DNA of 64,000 bases from Franconibacter pulveris DSM 19144. GTDB lineage: Bacteria > Pseudomonadota > Gammaproteobacteria > Enterobacterales > Enterobacteriaceae. The DNA lies in NCBI GenBank assembly GCA_000621185.1, contig KK211223.1, positions 1 through 64,000 of the forward strand, written 5' to 3'. The position numbers and the translations under genes are program-made. Below are positions 2,688 through 18,327 of the stretch, in pieces. Below the pieces are notes generated by a model. It was not told where the DNA came from and made no database searches. It was given only the letters and a program-made list of their open reading frames with translations. How positions within the stretch are numbered: the first letter of the stretch is position 1; each line of letters starts with the position of its first letter.

Positions 2688-4286
2688 ATGAATCAGCAAG
2701 CCACCACCACCGAACTGGCATTCAACCAGCCCTTTAGCGAGCGGGAACGGCAAATACTGACGCCTGAAGCCGTTGAGTTTTTAAGCGAACTGGTTGCCCG
2801 CTTTACGCCGCAGCGTAACAAGTTATTAGCTGCCAGAACGCAGGTACAGCAGGAAATCGATGCCGGCAAGCTGCCCGATTTTATTTCGGAAACGGCTTCC
2901 ATAAGAGAAAGCGAATGGACTATTCGCGGTATTCCAGAGGACTTACAGGATCGCCGCGTTGAAATCACCGGCCCTGTAGAGCGCAAAATGGTGATCAATG
3001 CGCTAAACGCCAATGTGAAAGTCTTCATGGCCGATTTTGAAGACTCGCTGGCGCCAAACTGGGAGAAAGTGATCGACGGGCAGATCAACCTGCGGGATGC
3101 GGTGAAAGGCACCATCACCTGGACCAGTGAAGCTGGCAAAATCTACCAACTGAAGCCCAATCCTGCGGTGTTGATCTGCCGGGTGCGCGGCCTGCATCTC
3201 CCGGAAAAACATGTTACCTGGCGCGGTGAAGCGATCCCTGGCAGCCTGTTCGACTTCGCGCTCTATTTTTTCCACAACCACGAAACCCTGCTCGCCAAAG
3301 GCAGCGGCCCCTATTTCTACCTGCCGAAAACCCAGTCATGGCAGGAGGCCGCCTGGTGGAGCGAGGTTTTCAGCTATACCGAAGACCGCTTCAGCCTGCC
3401 GCGCGGCACCATCAAAGCAACCTTGTTAATCGAAACGCTGCCGGCGGTTTTCCAGATGGACGAGATCCTTCATGCGATGCGCGACCATATCGTGGGTCTT
3501 AACTGCGGCCGCTGGGATTACATTTTCAGCTACATCAAAACGCTCAAAAACCACCCGGATCGCGTGCTGCCCGACCGCCAGAGCGTAACAATGGATAAAC
3601 CCTTTCTGAATGCGTATTCGCGGCTGCTGATTAAAACCTGCCACCGCCGCGGGGCCTTCGCAATGGGCGGTATGGCGGCGTTTATCCCGAGTAAAGATAG
3701 CCAGCGTAACGACTGGGTGCTGAATAAGGTTAAAGCGGATAAAGAGCTCGAAGCGAACAATGGTCACGACGGCACCTGGATTGCGCATCCCGGGCTTGGC
3801 GATACGGTGATGGCGGTCTTTGACAAGGCGCTGGGGGAAAACAAAAACCAGCTGCGCGTCACCCGGGAAGAAGATGCGCCCATTACTGCGCAAGCGCTGC
3901 TGGCGCCTTGCGAAGGCGAGCGTACGGAAGAGGGGATGCGCGCCAATATCCGCGTGGCGGTACAGTACATTGAAGCCTGGATTTCAGGCAACGGCTGCGT
4001 GCCGATTTACGGCCTGATGGAAGATGCCGCGACGGCGGAGATCTCCCGTACCTCTATCTGGCAGTGGATCCACCATCAGAAAACCTTAAGCAACGGCAAG
4101 CTGGTGACCAAAGATCTCTTCCGCCAGATGCTCGCCGAAGAGATGCAGGTCATCCAGGAAGAGCTGGGCGAACAGCGCTTCAGCCATGGCCGCTTTGTAG
4201 AGGCCGCGCGCCTGATGGAGCAAATCACCACCTCGGACGAGCTTATCGACTTCCTCACGCTGCCAGGCTACCGCCTGCTGGCCTGA
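2688..4286 (+). CDS. aceB: Malate synthase A
   Basis: Internal ATG giving [12 protein letters not shown]... (532 aa) matches E. coli AceB. The 19 codons upstream in the tool ORF lack an orthologous counterpart. Confidence 0.95.
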
Positions 4287-4321
4287 CCCTACGCCACCCT
4301 ACTAATAAGGAGCATCTGCCT

Positions 4322-5629
4322 ATGAAAACGACACGTACCCAACAGATTGAGCAATTAGAGCAGGAATGGCAACAACCGCGCTGGGAAGGGATCCGTCGTC
4401 CTTACAGCGCGCAGGAGGTGGTAAAGCTGCGCGGTTCGGTGAACCCGGAATGCACGCTGGCGCAGTTGGGCGCGGCGAAAATGTGGCGTTTGCTGCATGG
4501 CGACGCGAAAAAAGGCTATATCAACAGCCTCGGCGCGCTGACCGGCGGCCAGGCGTTGCAACAGGCGAAAGCGGGGATTGAGGCGGTTTACCTTTCCGGT
4601 TGGCAGGTCGCAGCCGATGCTAACCTGGCGTCCAGCATGTACCCGGATCAATCGCTCTACCCGGCTAACTCCGTGCCTTCGGTAGTGGAGCGGATCAACA
4701 ATACGTTTCGCCGTGCGGATCAGATCCAGTGGGCTGCCGGCATTGAGCCGGGCGATCCGCGCTATGTCGATTATTTCCTGCCGATTGTGGCGGATGCCGA
4801 AGCGGGATTTGGCGGCGTGCTGAACGCCTTTGAACTGATGAAATCGATGATTGAAGCGGGCGCGGCGGCGGTACATTTTGAAGATCAGCTCGCCTCGGTG
4901 AAAAAGTGCGGTCATATGGGCGGGAAAGTGCTGGTGCCGACTCAGGAAGCTATCCAGAAGCTGGTGGCGGCGCGCCTGGCGGCAGATGTGATGGGCGTGC
5001 CGACGCTGTTAATCGCCCGCACCGACGCCGACGCGGCGGATCTGATTACCTCCGATTGCGACCCCTACGACAGCGAGTTCATTACCGGCGAGCGCACCAG
5101 TGAAGGCTTTTACCGCACTCGTGCGGGCGTAGAGCAGGCTATCAGCCGGGGGCTGGCGTATGCCCCTTATGCCGACCTGGTATGGTGTGAAACGTCCACG
5201 CCCGATCTCGCTCAGGCCAGGCGCTTCGCCGAAGCGATTCATGCCCGTTTCCCCGGCAAGCTGCTCGCCTACAACTGCTCGCCTTCGTTTAACTGGCAGA
5301 AGAATCTGGATGATAAAACCATCGCCAGCTTCCAGCAGCAGCTGTCGGACATGGGCTACAAGTACCAGTTCATCACGCTCGCAGGGATTCACAGCATGTG
5401 GTTCAACATGTTCGACCTGGCGCACGCCTATGCACAGGGCGAAGGGATGAAGCACTACGTTGAGAAGGTGCAGCAGCCGGAATTCGCGGCCGGGAAAGAA
5501 GGGTACACCTTCGTTTCGCATCAGCAAGAGGTGGGCACCGGCTATTTCGACAACGTGACCACCATTATCCAGGGCGGCGCGTCGTCCGTCACGGCGCTGA
5601 CCGGCTCAACAGAGGAAGCGCAGTTCTAG
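4322..5629 (+). CDS. aceA: Isocitrate lyase
   Basis: [24 protein letters not shown]... (435 aa) is >90% identical to E. coli AceA. The ORF-track N-terminal extension overlaps aceB and is spurious. Confidence 0.95.
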
Positions 5630-12752: not shown

Positions 12753-14381
12753 GTGTTAACGCTGTTACACCTGCTGTCTGCGGTGGCGCTGCTGGTATGG
12801 GGCACCCACATTGTGCGTACCGGCGTAATGCGCGTCTTTGGCGCGCGGTTAAGAACCGTGCTCAGCCGCAGCGTGGAGAAAAAACCGCTCGCCTTTTGCG
12901 CGGGCATTGGCGTGACTGCGCTGGTGCAGAGCAGCAACGCCACCACGATGTTAGTCACCTCGTTTGTCGCGCAGGATCTGGTGGCGCTCACGCCTGCGCT
13001 GGTCATTGTGCTGGGGGCCGATGTCGGTACGGCGCTGATGGCGCGCGTGCTGACCTTCGACCTTTCCTGGCTCTCGCCGCTGCTGATTTTCGTCGGCGTC
13101 ATTTTCTTCTTAAGCCGCAAGCAAACCCGGGCGGGTCAGCTTGGTCGCGTCGCCATCGGCCTTGGGCTTATTCTGCAGGCGCTGGAGCTTATCGTGCAGG
13201 CGGTCACGCCGATTACCGAAGCTTCGGGCGTGAAGGTGATTTTCGCCTCGCTGACGGGCGATATCATGCTCGATGCGCTGATAGGCGCCGTGTTCGCTAT
13301 CATCAGCTATTCAAGCCTTGCCGCCGTGTTGTTGACCGCCACGCTGACGGCGACCGGCGTTATCTCTTTTGACGTGGCGCTCTGTCTGGTGATTGGCGCC
13401 AACCTCGGCTCCGGCCTGCTTGCTATGCTCAACAACAGCGCCGCGAACGCCGCCGCCCGGCGTGTGGCGCTTGGCAGCCTGATGTTCAAGCTTGTGGGCA
13501 GCCTCATTGTGCTGCCGTTCGTTCACCTTCTGGCGAATGGGCTGCATAAATTGCCGCTGCCGGAGTCCGAACTGGTTATCTATTTTCACGTTTTTTATAA
13601 CCTCATCCGCTGCCTGGCGATGGTGCCTTTCGCCAGAATGATGGCGCGCTTTTGCCGCCGGATGATCAAAGACGACCCGCAGACCGACGCGCGGCTGAAG
13701 CCGCGCCACCTGGACACCAGCGCGCTCGACACCCCGGCGCTGGGCCTTGCCAATGCGGCGCGGGAGACGCTGCGCATGGGCGACGCGCTGGAGCATATGC
13801 TGGAGCTGTACGGCAAAGTCATGCACGGCGAACCGCGCCAGGAGAAAGAGCTGCGCAAGGTGGCCGACGATGTGGATGTGCTCTACACCGCCATCAAGCT
13901 CTATCTGGCGCGCATGCCGAAAGAGGATTTGCCGGAAGCGGAGGCGAAACGCTGGGCGGAGATTATTGAGATGTCGCTGAACCTCGATCAGGCGGCGGAC
14001 ATTCTTGAGCGCATGGGCAGCGAAGTGGCGGATAAATCGCTGGCCGCGCGGCGCGCGTTTTCGCCGGAAGGCATTAAGGAGCTGGATACGCTGCTTAACC
14101 AGCTTACCGCCAACCTGAAGCTCAGCATGTCGGTCTTTTTCTCCGGCGACGTGCCGAGCGCGCGCCGTCTGCGCCGCTATAAACACCGCTTTCGCATTCT
14201 CAACCGGCGCTACTCTCATGCGCACGTTGACAGGCTGCATCAGCAGAATGTGCAGAGCATTGAAACCAGCTCGTTACACCTGAGCCTGCTTGGCGACATG
14301 AAGCGGCTGAACTCGTTGTTCTGCGCGGTGGCCTACAGCGTGCTGGAGCAGCCGGACGACGATGAGGAGCGAGCGGAGTAA
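12753..14381 (+). CDS. yjbB: Na+/phosphate symporter-family protein YjbB (542 aa)
   Basis: GTG start. Polytopic membrane N-terminal half plus a PhoU-like C-terminal half. Synteny after metH. Confidence 0.85.
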   Translation: MLTLLHLLSAVALLVWGTHIVRTGVMRVFGARLRTVLSRSVEKKPLAFCAGIGVTALVQSSNATTMLVTSFVAQDLVALTPALVIVLGADVGTALMARVLTFDLSWLSPLLIFVGVIFFLSRKQTRAGQLGRVAIGLGLILQALELIVQAVTPITEASGVKVIFASLTGDIMLDALIGAVFAIISYSSLAAVLLTATLTATGVISFDVALCLVIGANLGSGLLAMLNNSAANAAARRVALGSLMFKLVGSLIVLPFVHLLANGLHKLPLPESELVIYFHVFYNLIRCLAMVPFARMMARFCRRMIKDDPQTDARLKPRHLDTSALDTPALGLANAARETLRMGDALEHMLELYGKVMHGEPRQEKELRKVADDVDVLYTAIKLYLARMPKEDLPEAEAKRWAEIIEMSLNLDQAADILERMGSEVADKSLAARRAFSPEGIKELDTLLNQLTANLKLSMSVFFSGDVPSARRLRRYKHRFRILNRRYSHAHVDRLHQQNVQSIETSSLHLSLLGDMKRLNSLFCAVAYSVLEQPDDDEERAE

Positions 14382-14409
14382 CGCATTAACGTTTGATGGT
14401 TAACCCGAG

Positions 14410-14460
14410 ACCCAACGCTTTCATCACCGCCAGGGTGGTTTTAAGCGTTGGGTTTCCTTT
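14410..14460 (+). terminator. yjbB terminator (long hairpin)
   Basis: ACCCAACGCTT...AAGCGTTGGGT 11-bp stem followed by a T-rich tract. Confidence 0.45.
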
Positions 14461-14649
14461 ATCGCGAAAAGAGCGGCATCGCTGCTTTCAGCATTGCAGC
14501 GAAAGCACGATTTACCGGGAAGCAACTCGCAAAGCGCGCACCGGCTTCGTGACAATACGGCCTTCAAACTCTATTTTCTGATACAGCGCGAAACCTGAAG
14601 CACCGGGAAAGGGAAAAACCGTGCAGTATCGCAGATCAAAGGAGGCATC

Positions 14650-14886
14650 ATGCGCACCAGAGTTCCGTTTATCACTGCTGCCAGCAGTCCGCTGGAAATA
14701 AAAATGATAAGCCACGCCAGAAGGCAAGAAAGTGAATTCTCCGTCATGTCCGACGGTATAAGCCAGCAAGAAAACTGTCAGCATCATATCGAAGCAGAGC
14801 TTCGGGAGTATCAGCAGACCTTCGAAGCCATTAACCACTTTATTGAGGAGCATGGCGCGTTTAGTGATTTTCATCGGTCGTTCTGA
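14650..14886 (+). CDS. ccdA: CcdA-like antitoxin (78 aa)
   Basis: AAAGGAGG RBS. The C-terminus ..EYQQTFEAINHFIEEHGAFSDFHRSF aligns with F-plasmid CcdA ..EGMAEVARFIEMNGSFADENRDW. The stop overlaps the ccdB ATG (TGATG). Confidence 0.7.
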   Translation: MRTRVPFITAASSPLEIKMISHARRQESEFSVMSDGISQQENCQHHIEAELREYQQTFEAINHFIEEHGAFSDFHRSF

Positions 14887-15203
14887 TGGAACAGTTTCGG
14901 GTATATCAGAACAAAGGGGCAGGCAAGCATGCTTACCCCTATTTTATTAATATCCAGCACCCTGTCGCGAATACGCTTCGGCATGTTCTGGTTGTGCCAG
15001 TAGTCGACAGCAGGCTTTTGCCCGCTAAGCCCTTGTCGGCAAAAATTTGTCCGGTGGTTGAGATTGCAGGGCCCGCTTATGTGGCGATGACGCCCATGAT
15101 GGCGGGAGTGCCAACGAAAGAAGTCGGCGGCGAAGTTGCTGACTTTACGCACTATCGACAGCCATTACGCGATGCAGTCGATTTTTTGCTTAATGGCTAC
15201 TAA
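14886..15203 (+). CDS. ccdB: CcdB-like gyrase-poison toxin (105 aa)
   Basis: MEQFRVYQNK...VVPVVDSRLL...CPVVEIAGPAYVAMTPMMAGVP..GGEVADFTHY.. aligns along its length with F CcdB (MQFKVYTYK...VIPLASARLL...[32 protein letters not shown]..). Confidence 0.8.
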   Translation: MEQFRVYQNKGAGKHAYPYFINIQHPVANTLRHVLVVPVVDSRLLPAKPLSAKICPVVEIAGPAYVAMTPMMAGVPTKEVGGEVADFTHYRQPLRDAVDFLLNGY

Positions 15204-15220
15204 TCCGTAGCCATTTTTTA
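15195..15220 (+). terminator. ccdAB terminator
   Basis: GGCTAC-TAATCC-GTAGCC hairpin followed by ATTTTTTA. Confidence 0.5.
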
Positions 15221-15251
15221 GCGACCCCGCAGCATGCGAATGCAAAGGTCA

Positions 15252-15524
15252 TCACCTTCGTCCGCGCGCAGGCGTGCTGGCGGACCAGGAGAAGGTGGAT
15301 TCGCTGTCGGGCTTGTAAGCCTGCTGCTTCTTCAGCTTACGCGCCTGTTTCGCCGCCAGCTCCCGCTGCGCCATCAGTTTATCGATGTACTCTTTCTTAA
15401 CGTGATTCGCTTCGGAATTGGTCAGCGGGCGGCCATGGGCGATACGGGCGCGGTCGAGCAGCGTTTTTAATTCGCGCTGTTCGCTTTCGGTCATCTCTTT
15501 CTGGGTCAGTCTGGCGGTGGACAT
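15252..15524 (-). CDS. yjbD: DUF3811-family protein YjbD (90 aa)
   Basis: MSTARLTQKEMTESEQRELKTLLDRARIAHGRPLTNSE... matches remembered E. coli YjbD. Confidence 0.75.
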   Translation of the reverse strand: MSTARLTQKEMTESEQRELKTLLDRARIAHGRPLTNSEANHVKKEYIDKLMAQRELAAKQARKLKKQQAYKPDSESTFSWSASTPARGRR

Positions 15525-15589
15525 AATGGCTACCTCTCAGGGAAAGTCAGTCCAGTGTACGTGATAGCGGCGAAGAACACAGGGTAAGC

Positions 15590-15625
15590 CTGCTGAAATA
15601 AAAATGCCGGGCAGCCCCGGCATTT
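15590..15625 (-). terminator. Terminator of the BASS transporter gene
   Basis: ATGCCGGGCAGCCCCGGCAT hairpin with a T-run on the minus strand. Confidence 0.5.
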
Positions 15626-15629
15626 CACA

Positions 15630-16571
15630 TTAACTCTCCCGCACGGTTTCCCGCTTGCGTTTATCGACGGGCTTCCCGGACCAGTAACCCGCCAGCAGCG
15701 AGCCGGAAAGGTTATGCCACACCGAGAAGAGCGCGCCGGGCAGGGCGGCCAGCGGCGAGAAGTAGATTTTGCCAAGCGCGGCGGCAAGCCCTGAGTTCTG
15801 CATGCCCACCTCGATGGCCAGCGTGCGACAGGTCGACTCGTCAAAGCCGAACAGCCTTCCGCCCCAGTAGCCGCCAAGCAAACCAATGCTGTTATGCAGG
15901 ATCACCGCCACAATCACCATCAGGCCTACCGAGGCGATATGCGAAGCGGAGCCCGCCACCACGGCGCTGATGATAGCCAGAATACAGACCATCGAAAACG
16001 CGGGCAGATAAGGCTCTACCGCTTTCACCAGACGCGGGAAGAGATGGTGCACAATCAGCCCCAGCGCAATCGGGATAACGACGATTTGCAGAATGCTCAG
16101 CAGCATGCCCATCACGTCCACCTGAATATGCGCGTCGACGTAAAGGCGCGTCAGCAGCGGCGTGGCGAAAACGCCCACCAGCGTAGAGACGGAGGAGATG
16201 GTCACCGACAGCGCCACGTCGCCCTTCGCCAGATAGATCATCACGTTGGACGCGGTGCCGCTCGCCACGCTTCCCACCAGCACCATCCCGGCGGAAAGAT
16301 CCGGCGGCATATGAAACAGCATCGCCAGCAGCCAGGCGGCCAGCGGCATTACCAGATAATGCAGAAAAATGCCTGCCGCCACCGGCGCGGGGCGGGAGAG
16401 CACGCGTTTGAAATCATCAAGCTTCAGGTGCACGCCCATGCCGAACATGATGAGCATTAATAGCGTGCTGACCCAGGGCCCAACGGGCGTGAAGGTGGAA
16501 GGGGTGTAATAAGCCAAAACCGAGAGCAGCAGCGCCCAGAGCGGGAACAGCCGCGTGAATGTTGCGAGCAT
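15630..16571 (-). CDS. Bile acid:sodium symporter (BASS)-family transporter (313 aa)
   Basis: Polytopic membrane protein with BASS-like repeats (..[12 protein letters not shown]..). Not at this position in E. coli K-12. Confidence 0.8.
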
Positions 16572-16650
16572 GATGATTCTTTTCCTTGCAGGTTGCGTCG
16601 TTGTGTTTCCCCTGCCGCTGTGAGCGCGGCGTTGCGTTATCGCTATGCGG

Positions 16651-16680
16651 GGATAAAAAAGCCGGGAGCGGGCCCGGCCA
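16651..16680 (-). terminator. rtcR terminator
   Basis: GCCGGG-AGCGG-GCCCGGC hairpin followed on the minus strand by T6. Confidence 0.5.
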
Positions 16681-16737
16681 TAACTATTGTGTATCGTGCG
16701 AAGAAAAGTTATTCAAACAAATTATGATGAAATGCGC

Positions 16738-18327
16738 TCATCCTGCGCCGCGCACACTCTCCCAACTAAGCCCGAACCTCGCCAAGTATTTACGCAGGCG
16801 GTCGGCGTCGTTGGGGTTGCTTTTCTTCTGTCGTGAGACGGCGAAAAGCGCCCGTCCGGCTTCAGAGAGCGTACTGCAACGGCGACAGACGGCGATGACC
16901 GCCGCCAGCTGGTCTTGGTCGAAGAGGTCGAGGGTCGCCGGGTCGACGGGCAGCGCAACGGCGCCGTGCGCAGGCCGCCAGCTTTGTTGCAGCCGCAGAA
17001 TCTCTTCTTCCACCAACGCCTCTGTAATGCGCCCCTGGTCCGCCAGCGTCGCCATGCGCGCAACCGATGCGCCAAGCTCGCGAAAATTGCCCGGCCAGCG
17101 CGCCTGCGGCGAGCAGGCGAAGAGGAGATACCGCTCGCGCGCTGTCTTATCGAAGCGGATTTGCGTTTGCTGCTCCGCGCAGAAGCGCTGCAACTCATAT
17201 TCCACGTTAGGCGCAATATCCTCGCGCCGTTCGGCAAGGCCCGGCAGCGCAAAGGCCCACATGTTGATGCGGGCATAAAGATCTTCACGAAAGCGGCCTT
17301 CGGCGACCCACTGCGTCATGTCGCGATGCGTGCCGGCGATAAGCTGGAAATCGCTGTGCACTTCTTTATCCGAACCAAACGGGAAGAACGTTTTCTCTTC
17401 AATCGCCTTCAGCAACATCGCCTGCTCGTCCAGCCCCAGCTCGGCTATCTCATCGAGAAACAGCACGCCGCCGTCCGCTTCCCGAAGCAGGCCCGCCCGC
17501 GCCTGCTGCGCGCCGGTAAACGCCCCTTTGACATGGCCGAACAGGGTCGACATGGCGTTATCGCCGCGCAGCGTCGCGCAGTTTACCGACACCAGCCGTC
17601 CCTGCACGAGATGACGCGCCTGGCGCAGCTGGAAAATACGTTTCGCGAGAAAGGATTTGCCCGCGCCGGTAGGGCCGGTAAGCAGAATGGGCGCGGTGGA
17701 GCGCAGCGCCACGCGCTCTATCTGGTCAATCAGGCGGTTAAAGGTGGCGTTGCGGGTGTCGATGCCCGCCTTCAGAAACGAGACCGACTGTTGCTGCTCG
17801 CGCTGAAAACGGCTGGTGAGCGTCGCGTAGCGGCTTAAATCGAGGTCGATAACCGAGCAGGTGCCGGCGGCTTTCTCCATGTCCGTAGCCTCGCCCCTGG
17901 CCGGGCTGGTTTGCAGCAGGCTGGCGGGAAGGTAACGCGCTTCCGTCAGCAGGAACCAGCAGATCTGCGCCACATGCGTGCCGGTGGTGATATGCACCAG
18001 GTACTCTTCGTTTTCGGTGTCGAAAGGGTAGTGCGTGGCGAAGTCGAGAAAGGCGGCGTAAACCTCTTCAAAATCCCACGGGTCAAGAATCGTTACAGGG
18101 TGGCGGCGTACCTGCGTCTGCGGCGAAACGACAGCGATGTCTTCGCTAAGCTGCTCCGCCATGCCTTTATCCCGCGGCTGGTGCAGCAACTCCAGCCGGT
18201 CGACGGGAAAACCGGGCTGCTGGCAAAGACCGACGGTGGGCCGCCATTTCTTCCAGCGGTTCTCCCGCTTGCCGCGCTTGTCCAGCACCGTACCCAACAC
18301 GCCAATCACTACCCGCCGCTTTTGCAT
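16738..18327 (-). CDS. rtcR: Sigma54-dependent regulator RtcR (CARF-AAA+-HTH, 529 aa)
   Basis: ~60% identity along its length to remembered E. coli RtcR. It has the GAFTGA motif (GHVKGAFTGAQ), a Walker A motif (GPTGAGKS), and the C-terminus DADRLRKYLARFGLSWE. Confidence 0.9.
   Translation of the reverse strand: MQKRRVVIGVLGTVLDKRGKRENRWKKWRPTVGLCQQPGFPVDRLELLHQPRDKGMAEQLSEDIAVVSPQTQVRRHPVTILDPWDFEEVYAAFLDFATHYPFDTENEEYLVHITTGTHVAQICWFLLTEARYLPASLLQTSPARGEATDMEKAAGTCSVIDLDLSRYATLTSRFQREQQQSVSFLKAGIDTRNATFNRLIDQIERVALRSTAPILLTGPTGAGKSFLAKRIFQLRQARHLVQGRLVSVNCATLRGDNAMSTLFGHVKGAFTGAQQARAGLLREADGGVLFLDEIAELGLDEQAMLLKAIEEKTFFPFGSDKEVHSDFQLIAGTHRDMTQWVAEGRFREDLYARINMWAFALPGLAERREDIAPNVEYELQRFCAEQQTQIRFDKTARERYLLFACSPQARWPGNFRELGASVARMATLADQGRITEALVEEEILRLQQSWRPAHGAVALPVDPATLDLFDQDQLAAVIAVCRRCSTLSEAGRALFAVSRQKKSNPNDADRLRKYLARFGLSWESVRGAG

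What the first reader, a model, noticed from the sequence alone, without database searches (positions are those of the whole stretch)
14650..15220. Chromosomal ccdA/ccdB-like toxin–antitoxin pair inserted downstream of yjbB
The two ORFs have a 1-nt stop/start overlap (TGATG) and a strong RBS. The second ORF aligns end-to-end with the gyrase poison CcdB, though the C-terminal Trp-Gly-Ile of F CcdB is replaced by NGY. The first ORF has a CcdA-like C-terminal toxin-binding tail with a divergent RHH N-terminus. The pair has its own terminator and sits in a variable spacer.
Basis: partly seen in the sequence, partly recalled or inferred. Interest (0 to 1): 0.6.

Follow-up and report, generated by a model that had tools for sequence, protein, structure and literature searches.

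The report
Chromosomal ccdAB toxin–antitoxin pair
This is an ordinary chromosomal copy of the well-known CcdA/CcdB toxin–antitoxin module in Franconibacter pulveris; its one unusual feature is that the antitoxin's DNA-binding half can no longer be recognised.

Summary
ORF1 (14650-14886, 78 aa) and ORF2 (14886-15203, 105 aa) overlap by one base in TGATG. ORF1 follows an AAAGGAGG ribosome-binding site, and a 9-bp hairpin plus T-run terminator follows ORF2. ORF2 is a full-length CcdB (Pfam PF01845, E=2e-24). ORF1 passes the CcdA threshold, but only through its last about 33 residues, the toxin-binding tail. Residues 1-46 match no Pfam family, whereas the same region of the Phytobacter and Citrobacter orthologues is a canonical CcdA ribbon-helix-helix.

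The window is identical over this region to a complete Franconibacter pulveris genome. The cassette lies directly downstream of yjbB in F. pulveris, F. helveticus-type strains, Phytobacter and one Enterobacteriaceae MAG. ccdB has diverged in step with its flanking genes and is under purifying selection (dN/dS 0.1-0.27). It carries independent frameshifts in three F. helveticus-type assemblies, and one strain has replaced the cassette with a RelE/ParE pair.

The NGY C-terminus is a conserved trait of this subfamily, not decay. NCBI already names this "CcdB family protein". I file it as a new, uncharacterised member of a known family, of low interest. The possibly RHH-less antitoxin is a minor point worth noting.

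The parts
14407..14456 (+). Terminator-like hairpin of the upstream gene yjbB. This is the left flank, not part of the cassette.
   Evidence: Inverted repeat with 14-nt arms, 93% complementary, followed by a T-rich tail. It is conserved in L007 and L010. In strain L016, homology to the window stops at about 14469.
14510..14555 (+). Conserved upstream block (GGAAAGCnnCTCGCA-N16-CGTGACA) that ends in the -35-like hexamer.
   Evidence: The block has invariant columns across the Franconibacter, Phytobacter, UBA3516 and Citrobacter loci (alignment A8). Its function is inferred: promoter or regulatory region of the cassette.
14549..14577 (+). Sigma-70 promoter-like site: GTGACA, 17 nt, TATTTT.
   Evidence: Consensus scan, 9 of 12 matches. 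This is not significant alone (2 sites found against 0.9 expected). However, the -35 CGTGAC is invariant across genera.
14638..14645 (+). Shine-Dalgarno sequence AAAGGAGG for ccdA.
   Evidence: Read directly from the sequence. It is conserved in all Franconibacter loci, with ATG or GTG as the start codon.
14650..14886 (+). ccdA-like antitoxin gene (78 aa). Residues about 46-78 are the CcdB-binding tail. Residues 1-46 have no detectable family.
   Evidence: Pfam CcdA scores 28.3 bits for the whole protein and 27.7 bits for the last 33 residues alone. Residues 1-46 give no hit at E<=10. hhalign against canonical CcdAs aligns only residues 41-78 (97% probability).
14886..15203 (+). ccdB-like toxin gene (105 aa), translationally coupled to ccdA through the TGATG overlap.
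   Evidence: Pfam CcdB E=2.2e-24, full length. PDB CcdB hits. dN/dS is 0.10-0.27. The strain-specific substitution R63P is at 15073.
15192..15219 (+). Intrinsic terminator: a 9-bp stem that overlaps the last ccdB codons, a 6-nt loop and a T6 run.
   Evidence: RNA fold of -15.6 kcal/mol, z=-4.2. It is conserved in F. pulveris and F. helveticus-type loci. It is retained, with the last ~52 nt of ccdB, in strain L016, which lost the rest of the cassette.

Best explanation
This is a vertically inherited chromosomal type II toxin-antitoxin operon of the ccd family in Franconibacter pulveris. One transcript starts at a promoter about 70-100 nt upstream and ends at the hairpin that overlaps the ccdB stop codon. 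It encodes CcdA and then, by translational coupling, CcdB. By homology, CcdB is a dimeric gyrase poison that binds the GyrA dimerisation region and traps the cleavage complex. The C-terminal tail of CcdA (FIEEHGAFSDFHRSF) wraps around CcdB and neutralises it. These mechanistic steps are inferred, not shown. The N-terminal half of this CcdA has lost every recognisable feature of the ribbon-helix-helix domain that autoregulates canonical ccd operons, and it evolves with little amino-acid constraint. CcdA-mediated operator binding is therefore probably weakened, lost or changed (inferred). The locus behaves like other chromosomal ccd systems: its position is conserved, the toxin is generally maintained, and some lineages show toxin frameshifts or replacement of the cassette.
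For: Family assignment rests. CcdB is full length at E=2e-24 and is 32-34% identical to the V. fischeri and F CcdB proteins. G69, F71 and R76 of CcdA are invariant from the F plasmid to Franconibacter.

Operon anatomy rests.

Vertical inheritance and selection: the window is identical over this region to CP188029.1. The cassette lies directly downstream of yjbB in 8 F. pulveris-type loci, 6 F. helveticus-type loci, L011, Phytobacter and MAG UBA3516; the Citrobacter copies are in a different or undetermined context. ccdB dS between the window and L010 is 0.475, against 0.478 for yjbB. ccdB dN/dS is 0.10-0.27. Variable sites by codon position are 8/12/28 for ccdB and 2/3/6 for the ccdA tail.

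N-terminal loss: residues 1-46 give no Pfam hit at E<=10, whereas the Phytobacter equivalent scores 39 bits for CcdA. hhalign gives <1% probability for the N-terminal halves. phmmer against 1.8 billion representative proteins finds only the protein's own cluster plus one borderline hit to its C-terminal region. The N-half has a flat codon-position spectrum of 8/9/7 and dN/dS of 0.5-0.9 within Franconibacter, except 0.25 and 1.24 for the two closest pairs, which differ at 2 and 6 sites. L011 carries a 15-aa internal deletion there.

Decay and turnover: there are three independent ccdB frameshifts, in L023, L025 and L026, each with ccdA intact. In L016 a RelE/ParE pair replaces the cassette and leaves a ccdB 3' remnant.
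Against: No experiment shows toxicity, gyrase targeting or neutralisation. The Trp that stacks on GyrA Arg462 in the F system (PMC1635281) is Asn here. V. fischeri CcdB has Thr at that position and has been crystallised with GyrA fragments (PMC10886550), which weakens this objection. The protein scores below NCBIfam's equivalog cut-offs for F-type CcdB (58.7 against 147) and CcdA (14.2 against 100). This strain alone carries CcdB R63P, and its effect is unknown. A very divergent RHH cannot be excluded: an in-register comparison keeps weak residual similarity (shuffle p of 0.01-0.05), and the AF2 model came from a 3-sequence alignment and is uninformative. The CcdB model was unusable (pLDDT 40), so no fold comparison was made.
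Confidence: 0.75

Rival explanations
1. The pair in this strain is an inactive, decaying remnant. CcdB is no longer toxic and the genes persist only by inertia.
For: CcdB R63P and CcdA T47I occur only in this strain and its identical genome L017. Three F. helveticus-type assemblies carry ccdB frameshifts, a Citrobacter-type metagenome copy (L043) has a C-terminal frameshift, and L016 has lost the cassette. The antitoxin N-domain is degenerate. Decay of chromosomal ccd systems is a documented pattern (Mine et al. 2009, cited in PMC7167474).
Against: ccdB is intact in all 8 F. pulveris-type loci. It shows dN/dS of 0.10-0.27 over divergences up to dS of about 1.6, with third-position enrichment. 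Position 63 aligns to the GDES segment of F CcdB, which I take to be a turn (my reading), and Phytobacter has a Pro at the neighbouring position. Two of the three frameshifts are homopolymer-length changes in metagenome assemblies and could be assembly errors.
Confidence: 0.15
2. The module is kept as an anti-addiction or defence element. Chromosomal CcdA protects the host against plasmid-borne ccd post-segregational killing, or the pair acts in abortive infection.
For: ccdA stays intact in every locus where ccdB is broken. The spacer also collects other toxin-antitoxin and defence genes: a RelE/ParE pair, an OLD-family ATPase-TOPRIM nuclease and parDE. Anti-addiction has been shown for another chromosomal ccd system (Saavedra De Bast 2008, cited in PMC7167474).
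Against: The F-type proteins are only 19% (CcdA) and 34% (CcdB) identical to these, so cross-neutralisation is doubtful. The search found no relative on a convincingly mobile plasmid. The closest plasmid-database hit is a 425-kb non-mobilizable Citrobacter replicon where the pair sits next to sorbose genes, and no viral contig encodes a relative. No PADLOC model matches either protein.
Confidence: 0.15
3. The real antitoxin is a short product started at an internal codon (M19 or M33). The first ~100-140 nt of 'ccdA' would then be a 5' leader, not a protein domain.
For: Gene callers chose 46-aa and 60-aa products for L018 and L028, although L018 has the full 78-codon frame intact and L028 differs only in using GTG at the upstream start. 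Variable sites in codons 1-48 show no codon-position bias (8/9/7). By my estimate, 48 stop-free codons would arise by chance in roughly 10% of sequences of this composition.
Against: The strong AAAGGAGG site with ATG or GTG 4 nt downstream is conserved in all F. pulveris and F. helveticus-type loci. No comparable ribosome-binding site precedes M19 or M33 (read). Codon 33 is Val (GTG) in most relatives. L011 has its own Shine-Dalgarno and ATG giving an N-terminal extension. The Phytobacter orthologue has the same length when read from the corresponding Met and encodes a real domain there.
Confidence: 0.1

Closest known systems
Unnamed chromosomal CcdA/CcdB pairs of Phytobacter and Citrobacter (e.g. 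WP_003844689.1 / WP_054527950.1, annotated 'CcdA family antitoxin' / 'CcdB family protein')
   Same: CcdB is 105 aa, 52-58% identical, and has the same NGY C-terminus. CcdA is 78 aa when read from the corresponding Met (the ORF and the RefSeq annotation extend to 97 aa) and has the same tail (NGSFSDFQRSF against HGAFSDFHRSF). The two genes overlap at TGATG, and the upstream block GGAAAGC..CTCGCA-N16-CGTGAC is shared. In Phytobacter and MAG UBA3516 the pair also lies directly downstream of yjbB.
   Different: Their CcdA N-terminus is a canonical RHH (KKSVNVSLSPEILEEARKLKINLSAVLTEAL; Pfam 39 bits). The Franconibacter N-terminus gives no signal. The downstream neighbours also differ (rluF or the sor operon).
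Vibrio fischeri chromosomal CcdB (PDB 2kmt, 4ely, 4elz)
   Same: It is the best solved-structure match (E=1e-13) and is 32% identical. It is 105 aa long, lacks Trp at the F-W99 position and keeps the conserved Gly. It is a chromosomal ccd system that has been studied as a gyrase inhibitor and crystallised with GyrA fragments (PMC10886550).
   Different: It is a distant relative with a different host and genomic context, and its C-terminal residues differ (TG.. against NGY).
F-plasmid CcdA/CcdB (PDB 1vub, 3g7z; NCBIfam PRK13708 / PRK13710)
   Same: The fold family and operon order are the same. The CcdA tail motif G..F.D..R.[WF] is conserved, and CcdB aligns end to end.
   Different: Identity is 34% for CcdB and 19% for CcdA. 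F has WGI where this protein has NGY. F is plasmid-borne and serves post-segregational killing. F CcdA has a functional RHH. Both window proteins score below the NCBIfam equivalog cut-offs.
E. coli O157:H7 chromosomal ccdO157
   Same: It is a chromosomal ccd system at a conserved intergenic site, with toxin inactivation in some lineages (Mine et al. 2009, cited in PMC7167474).
   Different: It lies at a different locus (folA-apaH, from my own knowledge and not checked here). No E. coli genome matches this cassette at the DNA level; only yjbD matches.

Membership tests
CcdB toxin family (Pfam PF01845) | Full-length match to the family HMM above the curated cut-off | tested here: met
   86.1 bits against 28.6; residues 3-104 against profile 1-101; E=2.2e-24. 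No other Pfam family matched at E<=1.
CcdB toxin family (Pfam PF01845) | C-terminal three residues critical for toxicity (W99-G100-I101 in F; W99 stacks on GyrA R462) | tested here: inconclusive
   The Gly is conserved, but W is replaced by N and I by Y. NGY is conserved in all intact members of the subfamily. V. fischeri CcdB also lacks the Trp. The requirement is known for F only (PMC1635281).
CcdB toxin family (Pfam PF01845) | Poisons DNA gyrase through GyrA | not testable with these tools
   This needs a toxicity assay and a gyrase cleavage assay. The host gyrA gene is not in the window.
F-type CcdB equivalog (NCBIfam NF010262 / PRK13708) | Score above the equivalog cut-off | tested here: not met
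   58.7 bits against a cut-off of 147. It is a family member but not an F-type equivalog.
CcdA antitoxin family (Pfam PF07362) | Match to the family HMM above the curated cut-off | tested here: met
   28.3 bits against 22.4. Nearly all of the score (27.7 bits) comes from the last 33 residues.
CcdA antitoxin family (Pfam PF07362) | C-terminal CcdB-binding segment | tested here: met
   hhalign aligns residues 41-78 to canonical CcdAs at 97% probability. G69, F71 and R76 are invariant, including in F CcdA.
CcdA antitoxin family (Pfam PF07362) | N-terminal ribbon-helix-helix DNA-binding and dimerisation domain | tested here: not met
   Residues 1-46 give no Pfam hit at E<=10, whereas the Phytobacter equivalent scores 39 bits. 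Profile-profile probability is <1%. Only weak in-register similarity remains (p of 0.01-0.05). This is a sequence-level test only; the fold is unresolved.
F-type CcdA equivalog (NCBIfam NF010264 / PRK13710) | Score above the equivalog cut-off | tested here: not met
   14.2 bits against a cut-off of 100.
Type II toxin-antitoxin operon | Antitoxin gene immediately upstream of the toxin gene and co-transcribed, both small proteins | tested here: met
   1-nt overlap, a single Shine-Dalgarno site, a promoter-like site and a terminator. The pairing is conserved in all loci examined.
Type II toxin-antitoxin operon | Labile antitoxin, and autoregulation by the antitoxin-toxin complex | not testable with these tools
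No convincing operator palindrome was found in 14480-14660.

The most novel reading that the evidence does not exclude
In the Franconibacter lineage the CcdA antitoxin has lost its RHH DNA-binding domain, or replaced it with a fast-evolving domain of another kind, while keeping the toxin-neutralising tail. That would give a ccd module without classical conditional-cooperativity autoregulation. It would be a natural example of how a chromosomal toxin-antitoxin module is rewired after domestication.
Probability: 0.35. Interest if true: 0.35.

Novelty: new member of a known kind. Interest (0 to 1): 0.2.

Why it matters
It matters little beyond annotation. The locus adds an uncharacterised enterobacterial chromosomal ccd subfamily (NGY C-terminus) to the known F, O157 and Vibrio types. 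It offers a natural series: canonical RHH antitoxin in Phytobacter and Citrobacter, unrecognisable N-domain in F. pulveris and F. helveticus-type strains, internally deleted N-domain in L011, and frameshifted toxin in some F. helveticus-type assemblies. That series could be used to study how chromosomal toxin-antitoxin modules lose regulation and decay. The yjbB-yjbD spacer is also a small hotspot for toxin-antitoxin and defence genes in this branch of the Enterobacteriaceae.

Tried and rejected
(1) An RHH hidden by compensating frameshifts. The other two forward frames across 14600-14890 contain stops and nothing RHH-like.

(2) An antisense gene. The 120-aa ORF at 14512-14874 (-) is open in F. 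pulveris and is even called as a gene in two assemblies. It has stops in Phytobacter and Citrobacter and a different C-terminus in L010. Variable sites are not enriched at sense position 1, which is the antisense wobble position. I judge it a by-product of the codon usage of the sense-strand gene.

(3) Structure-based confirmation. The AF2 model of CcdB from a 4-sequence alignment had pLDDT 40. The CcdA model was one long helix. No fold search was run because the results would be meaningless.

(4) An exhaustive phmmer search with CcdA against 1.8 billion representatives found only its own cluster and one spurious hit.

(5) An operator search in 14480-14660 found no convincing palindrome. The near-repeat GATACAGC / GCAGTATC that I saw by eye is weakened by a T>C change in most relatives.

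(6) Known RNA families: none in 14300-15650 at E<=1.

(7) Phage-borne relatives: none in viral contigs.

(8) E. coli genomes share only yjbD with this region.

(9) The paper on V. fischeri CcdB (PMC2820787) is not held in the library.

Full report
**What is in the sequence.** Between the stop of a Na/Pi-cotransporter gene (yjbB, 12753-14381, +) and the convergent DUF3811 gene (yjbD, 15252-15524, -) lie two small forward ORFs. ORF1 is 14650-14886 (78 aa) and ORF2 is 14886-15203 (105 aa).
- The ORF1 stop (TGA, 14884-14886) and the ORF2 start (ATG, 14886-14888) share one base.
- AAAGGAGG (14638-14645) lies 4 nt before the ORF1 ATG. ORF2 has no ribosome-binding site of its own, which fits translational coupling.
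- A 9-bp hairpin (15192-15200 pairing with 15207-15215) overlaps the last ccdB codons and runs into T6. It folds at -15.6 kcal/mol, z=-4.2, and none of 200 shuffles folds as well.
- A sigma-70-like site, GTGACA-17-TATTTT, lies at 14549-14577. It is not significant alone, but its -35 element is invariant across genera.
- yjbB has its own hairpin terminator at 14407-14456.
- GC content falls to 0.48-0.51 across the cassette, against 0.58-0.64 in the flanks.

**Family assignment.** ORF2 matches Pfam CcdB over its whole length (86.1 bits, cut-off 28.6, E=2.2e-24) and matches no other family at E<=1.
- Its best solved relatives are V. fischeri CcdB (E=1e-13, 32% identity) and F-plasmid CcdB (E=1.9e-12, 34% identity).
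- ORF1 passes the Pfam CcdA cut-off (28.3 against 22.4 bits).
- Both proteins fall well below NCBIfam's equivalog cut-offs for the F-type proteins (58.7 against 147, and 14.2 against 100). They are family members, not F-type equivalogs.
- NCBI already names a 98%-identical protein 'CcdB family protein [Franconibacter pulveris]'.

**The C-terminus.** In the F system the last three residues (W99-G100-I101) are critical for toxicity, and W99 stacks on GyrA R462 (PMC1635281). Here they are N-G-Y.
- NGY is conserved in every intact member of this subfamily: Franconibacter, Phytobacter, MAG UBA3516 and Citrobacter, at 52-98% identity. It is a subfamily trait, not a lesion.
- V. fischeri CcdB has been crystallised with GyrA fragments (PMC10886550) and also lacks the Trp.
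- The feature is therefore inconclusive for function.

**The antitoxin.** The Pfam score of ORF1 comes almost entirely from its last 33 residues (27.7 of 28.3 bits).
- The tail FIEEHGAFSDFHRSF matches F CcdA's FIEMNGSFADENRDW. G69, F71 and R76 are invariant from F to Franconibacter.
- Residues 1-46 hit no Pfam family at E<=10. The same 46 residues of the Phytobacter orthologue score 39 bits for CcdA.
- Profile-profile comparison aligns only residues 41-78 (97% probability). It gives <1% for the N-halves compared alone.
- An exhaustive phmmer search of 1.8 billion representatives found only the protein's own cluster plus one borderline hit (E=6e-5) to residues 42-73 in an unrelated 1570-aa protein.
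- No alternative frame hides an RHH.
- The equal length (78 aa) and a weak in-register similarity (p of 0.01-0.05) suggest divergence in place from an RHH ancestor.
- All 9 metagenome relatives at 47-58% CcdB identity keep the canonical RHH, so the change is specific to the Franconibacter clade.
- In L011 the N-half is different again and carries a 15-aa internal deletion.
- Within Franconibacter the N-half has dN/dS of mostly 0.5-0.9 (0.25 and 1.24 in the two closest pairs, which differ at only 2 and 6 sites) and a flat codon-position spectrum (8/9/7 variable sites). The tail shows 2/3/6 and ccdB shows 8/12/28.
- The AF2 model came from 3 sequences, gave one long helix and does not resolve the fold.

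**Origin and population picture.** Over 14340-15251 the window is identical to CP188029.1, a 4.76-Mb genome. Its YjbD is identical to that of F. pulveris 1160.
- All eight F. pulveris-type loci carry intact ccdA and ccdB. This strain alone has CcdB R63P and CcdA T47I.
- The cassette lies directly downstream of yjbB, between yjbB and yjbD, in F. helveticus-type strains and in L011. It also lies directly downstream of yjbB in Phytobacter and MAG UBA3516, which have other genes between it and yjbD. Citrobacter freundii carries the same subfamily next to the same sorbose genes.
- E. coli has pepE-rluF at this site.
- Synonymous divergence of ccdB between the window and L010 (0.475) equals that of yjbB (0.478). 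ccdB dN/dS is 0.10-0.27. This indicates long vertical residence under purifying selection.

**Decay and turnover.** Among the F. helveticus-type assemblies, three carry independent ccdB frameshifts: an 11-nt deletion in L023, +1 G in L025 and +TT in L026. ccdA is intact in all three.
- One F. pulveris-type strain (L016) has a RelE/ParE-family HI1419/HI1420 pair in place of the cassette. It still retains the last ~52 nt of ccdB and the terminator.
- Cronobacter malonaticus has only the HI1419/HI1420 pair at this site.
- This mirrors the conserved location and decay reported for other chromosomal toxin-antitoxin modules, including ccdO157 (PMC7167474).

**Mechanism.**
- Shown by sequence: a two-gene, translationally coupled operon encodes a CcdB-family protein and a protein with a CcdA toxin-binding tail. 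The toxin and the tail are under purifying selection.
- Inferred from the family: CcdB poisons gyrase by binding GyrA, the CcdA tail neutralises it, and CcdA is labile.
- Inferred from the loss of RHH signal and the relaxed constraint: autoregulation through CcdA DNA binding is weakened, lost or altered in this lineage.
- No convincing operator palindrome was found.
- A conserved upstream block, GGAAAGC..CTCGCA-N16-CGTGAC, is shared with Phytobacter and Citrobacter. Its role is unknown.

**Rivals.**
- Inactive remnant. The strain-specific R63P and the decay seen elsewhere support it. Purifying selection and intactness across F. pulveris argue against it.
- Anti-addiction or defence role. ccdA retained where ccdB is broken, and the hotspot context, support it. 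Low identity to plasmid ccd systems and the absence of mobile relatives argue against it.
- Internal translation start that makes the N-half a leader. Gene-caller disagreement and the flat codon spectrum support it. The conserved strong ribosome-binding site and start codon argue against it.

**Unexplained.** The synonymous divergence of ccdA between the F. pulveris-type window and the F. helveticus-type locus L010 is only 0.14, and the promoter region differs by only ~8%. Neighbouring genes show dS of 0.47. Two explanations are possible and I could not separate them: a more recent recombinational exchange of the promoter-plus-ccdA segment, or nucleotide-level constraint.

**Verdict.** This is a correctly identified chromosomal ccdAB module that public annotation already labels at family level. 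It has not been characterised experimentally, and I found no paper that mentions a ccd system in Franconibacter. I file it as a new member of a known kind. Interest is low, and the unrecognisable antitoxin N-domain is the only feature worth a follow-up.

Noticed in passing
window 14382-15251; loci L006, L007, L016, L027, L029-L032, L014: The metH-yjbB-yjbD neighbourhood is a hotspot for toxin-antitoxin and defence genes. L016 and Cronobacter carry a RelE/ParE-family HI1419/HI1420 pair. L006 and L027 carry an OLD-family ATPase-TOPRIM nuclease island (616 aa; PADLOC Old 1e-17) between yjbB and ccdA. L007 has parDE between metH and yjbB. E. coli has pepE-rluF at this site.
   Followed up: partly
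L016 (reverse complement of 4274-4420), equivalent to window 15151-15251: A strain whose YjbD is identical to the window's lacks ccdAB but keeps the last ~52 nt of ccdB and the terminator. The cassette was therefore deleted or replaced there, not absent from the start.
   Followed up: yes
window 14512-14874 (-): A 120-aa ORF runs antisense to ccdA and is called as a gene in two public assemblies (L018, L019). It is not conserved outside Franconibacter and shows no coding signature, so it is probably a by-product of the codon usage of the sense-strand gene.
   Followed up: yes
window 14500-14885 compared with L010 and L024: The promoter region and ccdA differ by only ~8-9% between the F. pulveris-type and F. 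helveticus-type loci, with ccdA dS of 0.14. ccdB and yjbB show dS of 0.47. Recombination or nucleotide-level constraint could explain this; I did not resolve it.
   Followed up: partly
window 14510-14555; L001, L004, L012 upstream of ccdA: A conserved non-coding block, GGAAAGCnnCTCGCA-N16-CGTGAC(A), lies upstream of ccdA. It is shared across genera even though the downstream leader and the antitoxin N-domain have diverged. Its function is unknown.
   Followed up: no
window 14483-14507; L006 near 5540-5570: A small hairpin (TGCTTTC...GAAAGCA) marks the left edge of the cassette. In L006 it is a perfect 11-bp stem (GTGCTTTCGCC/GGCGAAAGCAC). The OLD-nuclease island is inserted just to its left.
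   Followed up: no
window 15073 and 14789: Two amino-acid changes, CcdB R63P and CcdA T47I, are found only in the window and its identical genome CP188029.1. All other F. pulveris-type loci have R63 and T47.
   Followed up: partly
window 15630-18327 and beyond: Downstream of yjbD lie an SBF-family sodium/bile-acid symporter gene and an rtcR-like sigma-54 activator gene. In the related loci these are followed by Band_7/slipin, rtcB and RlaP genes. This is an RNA-repair (rtc) neighbourhood and is not part of this finding.
   Followed up: no
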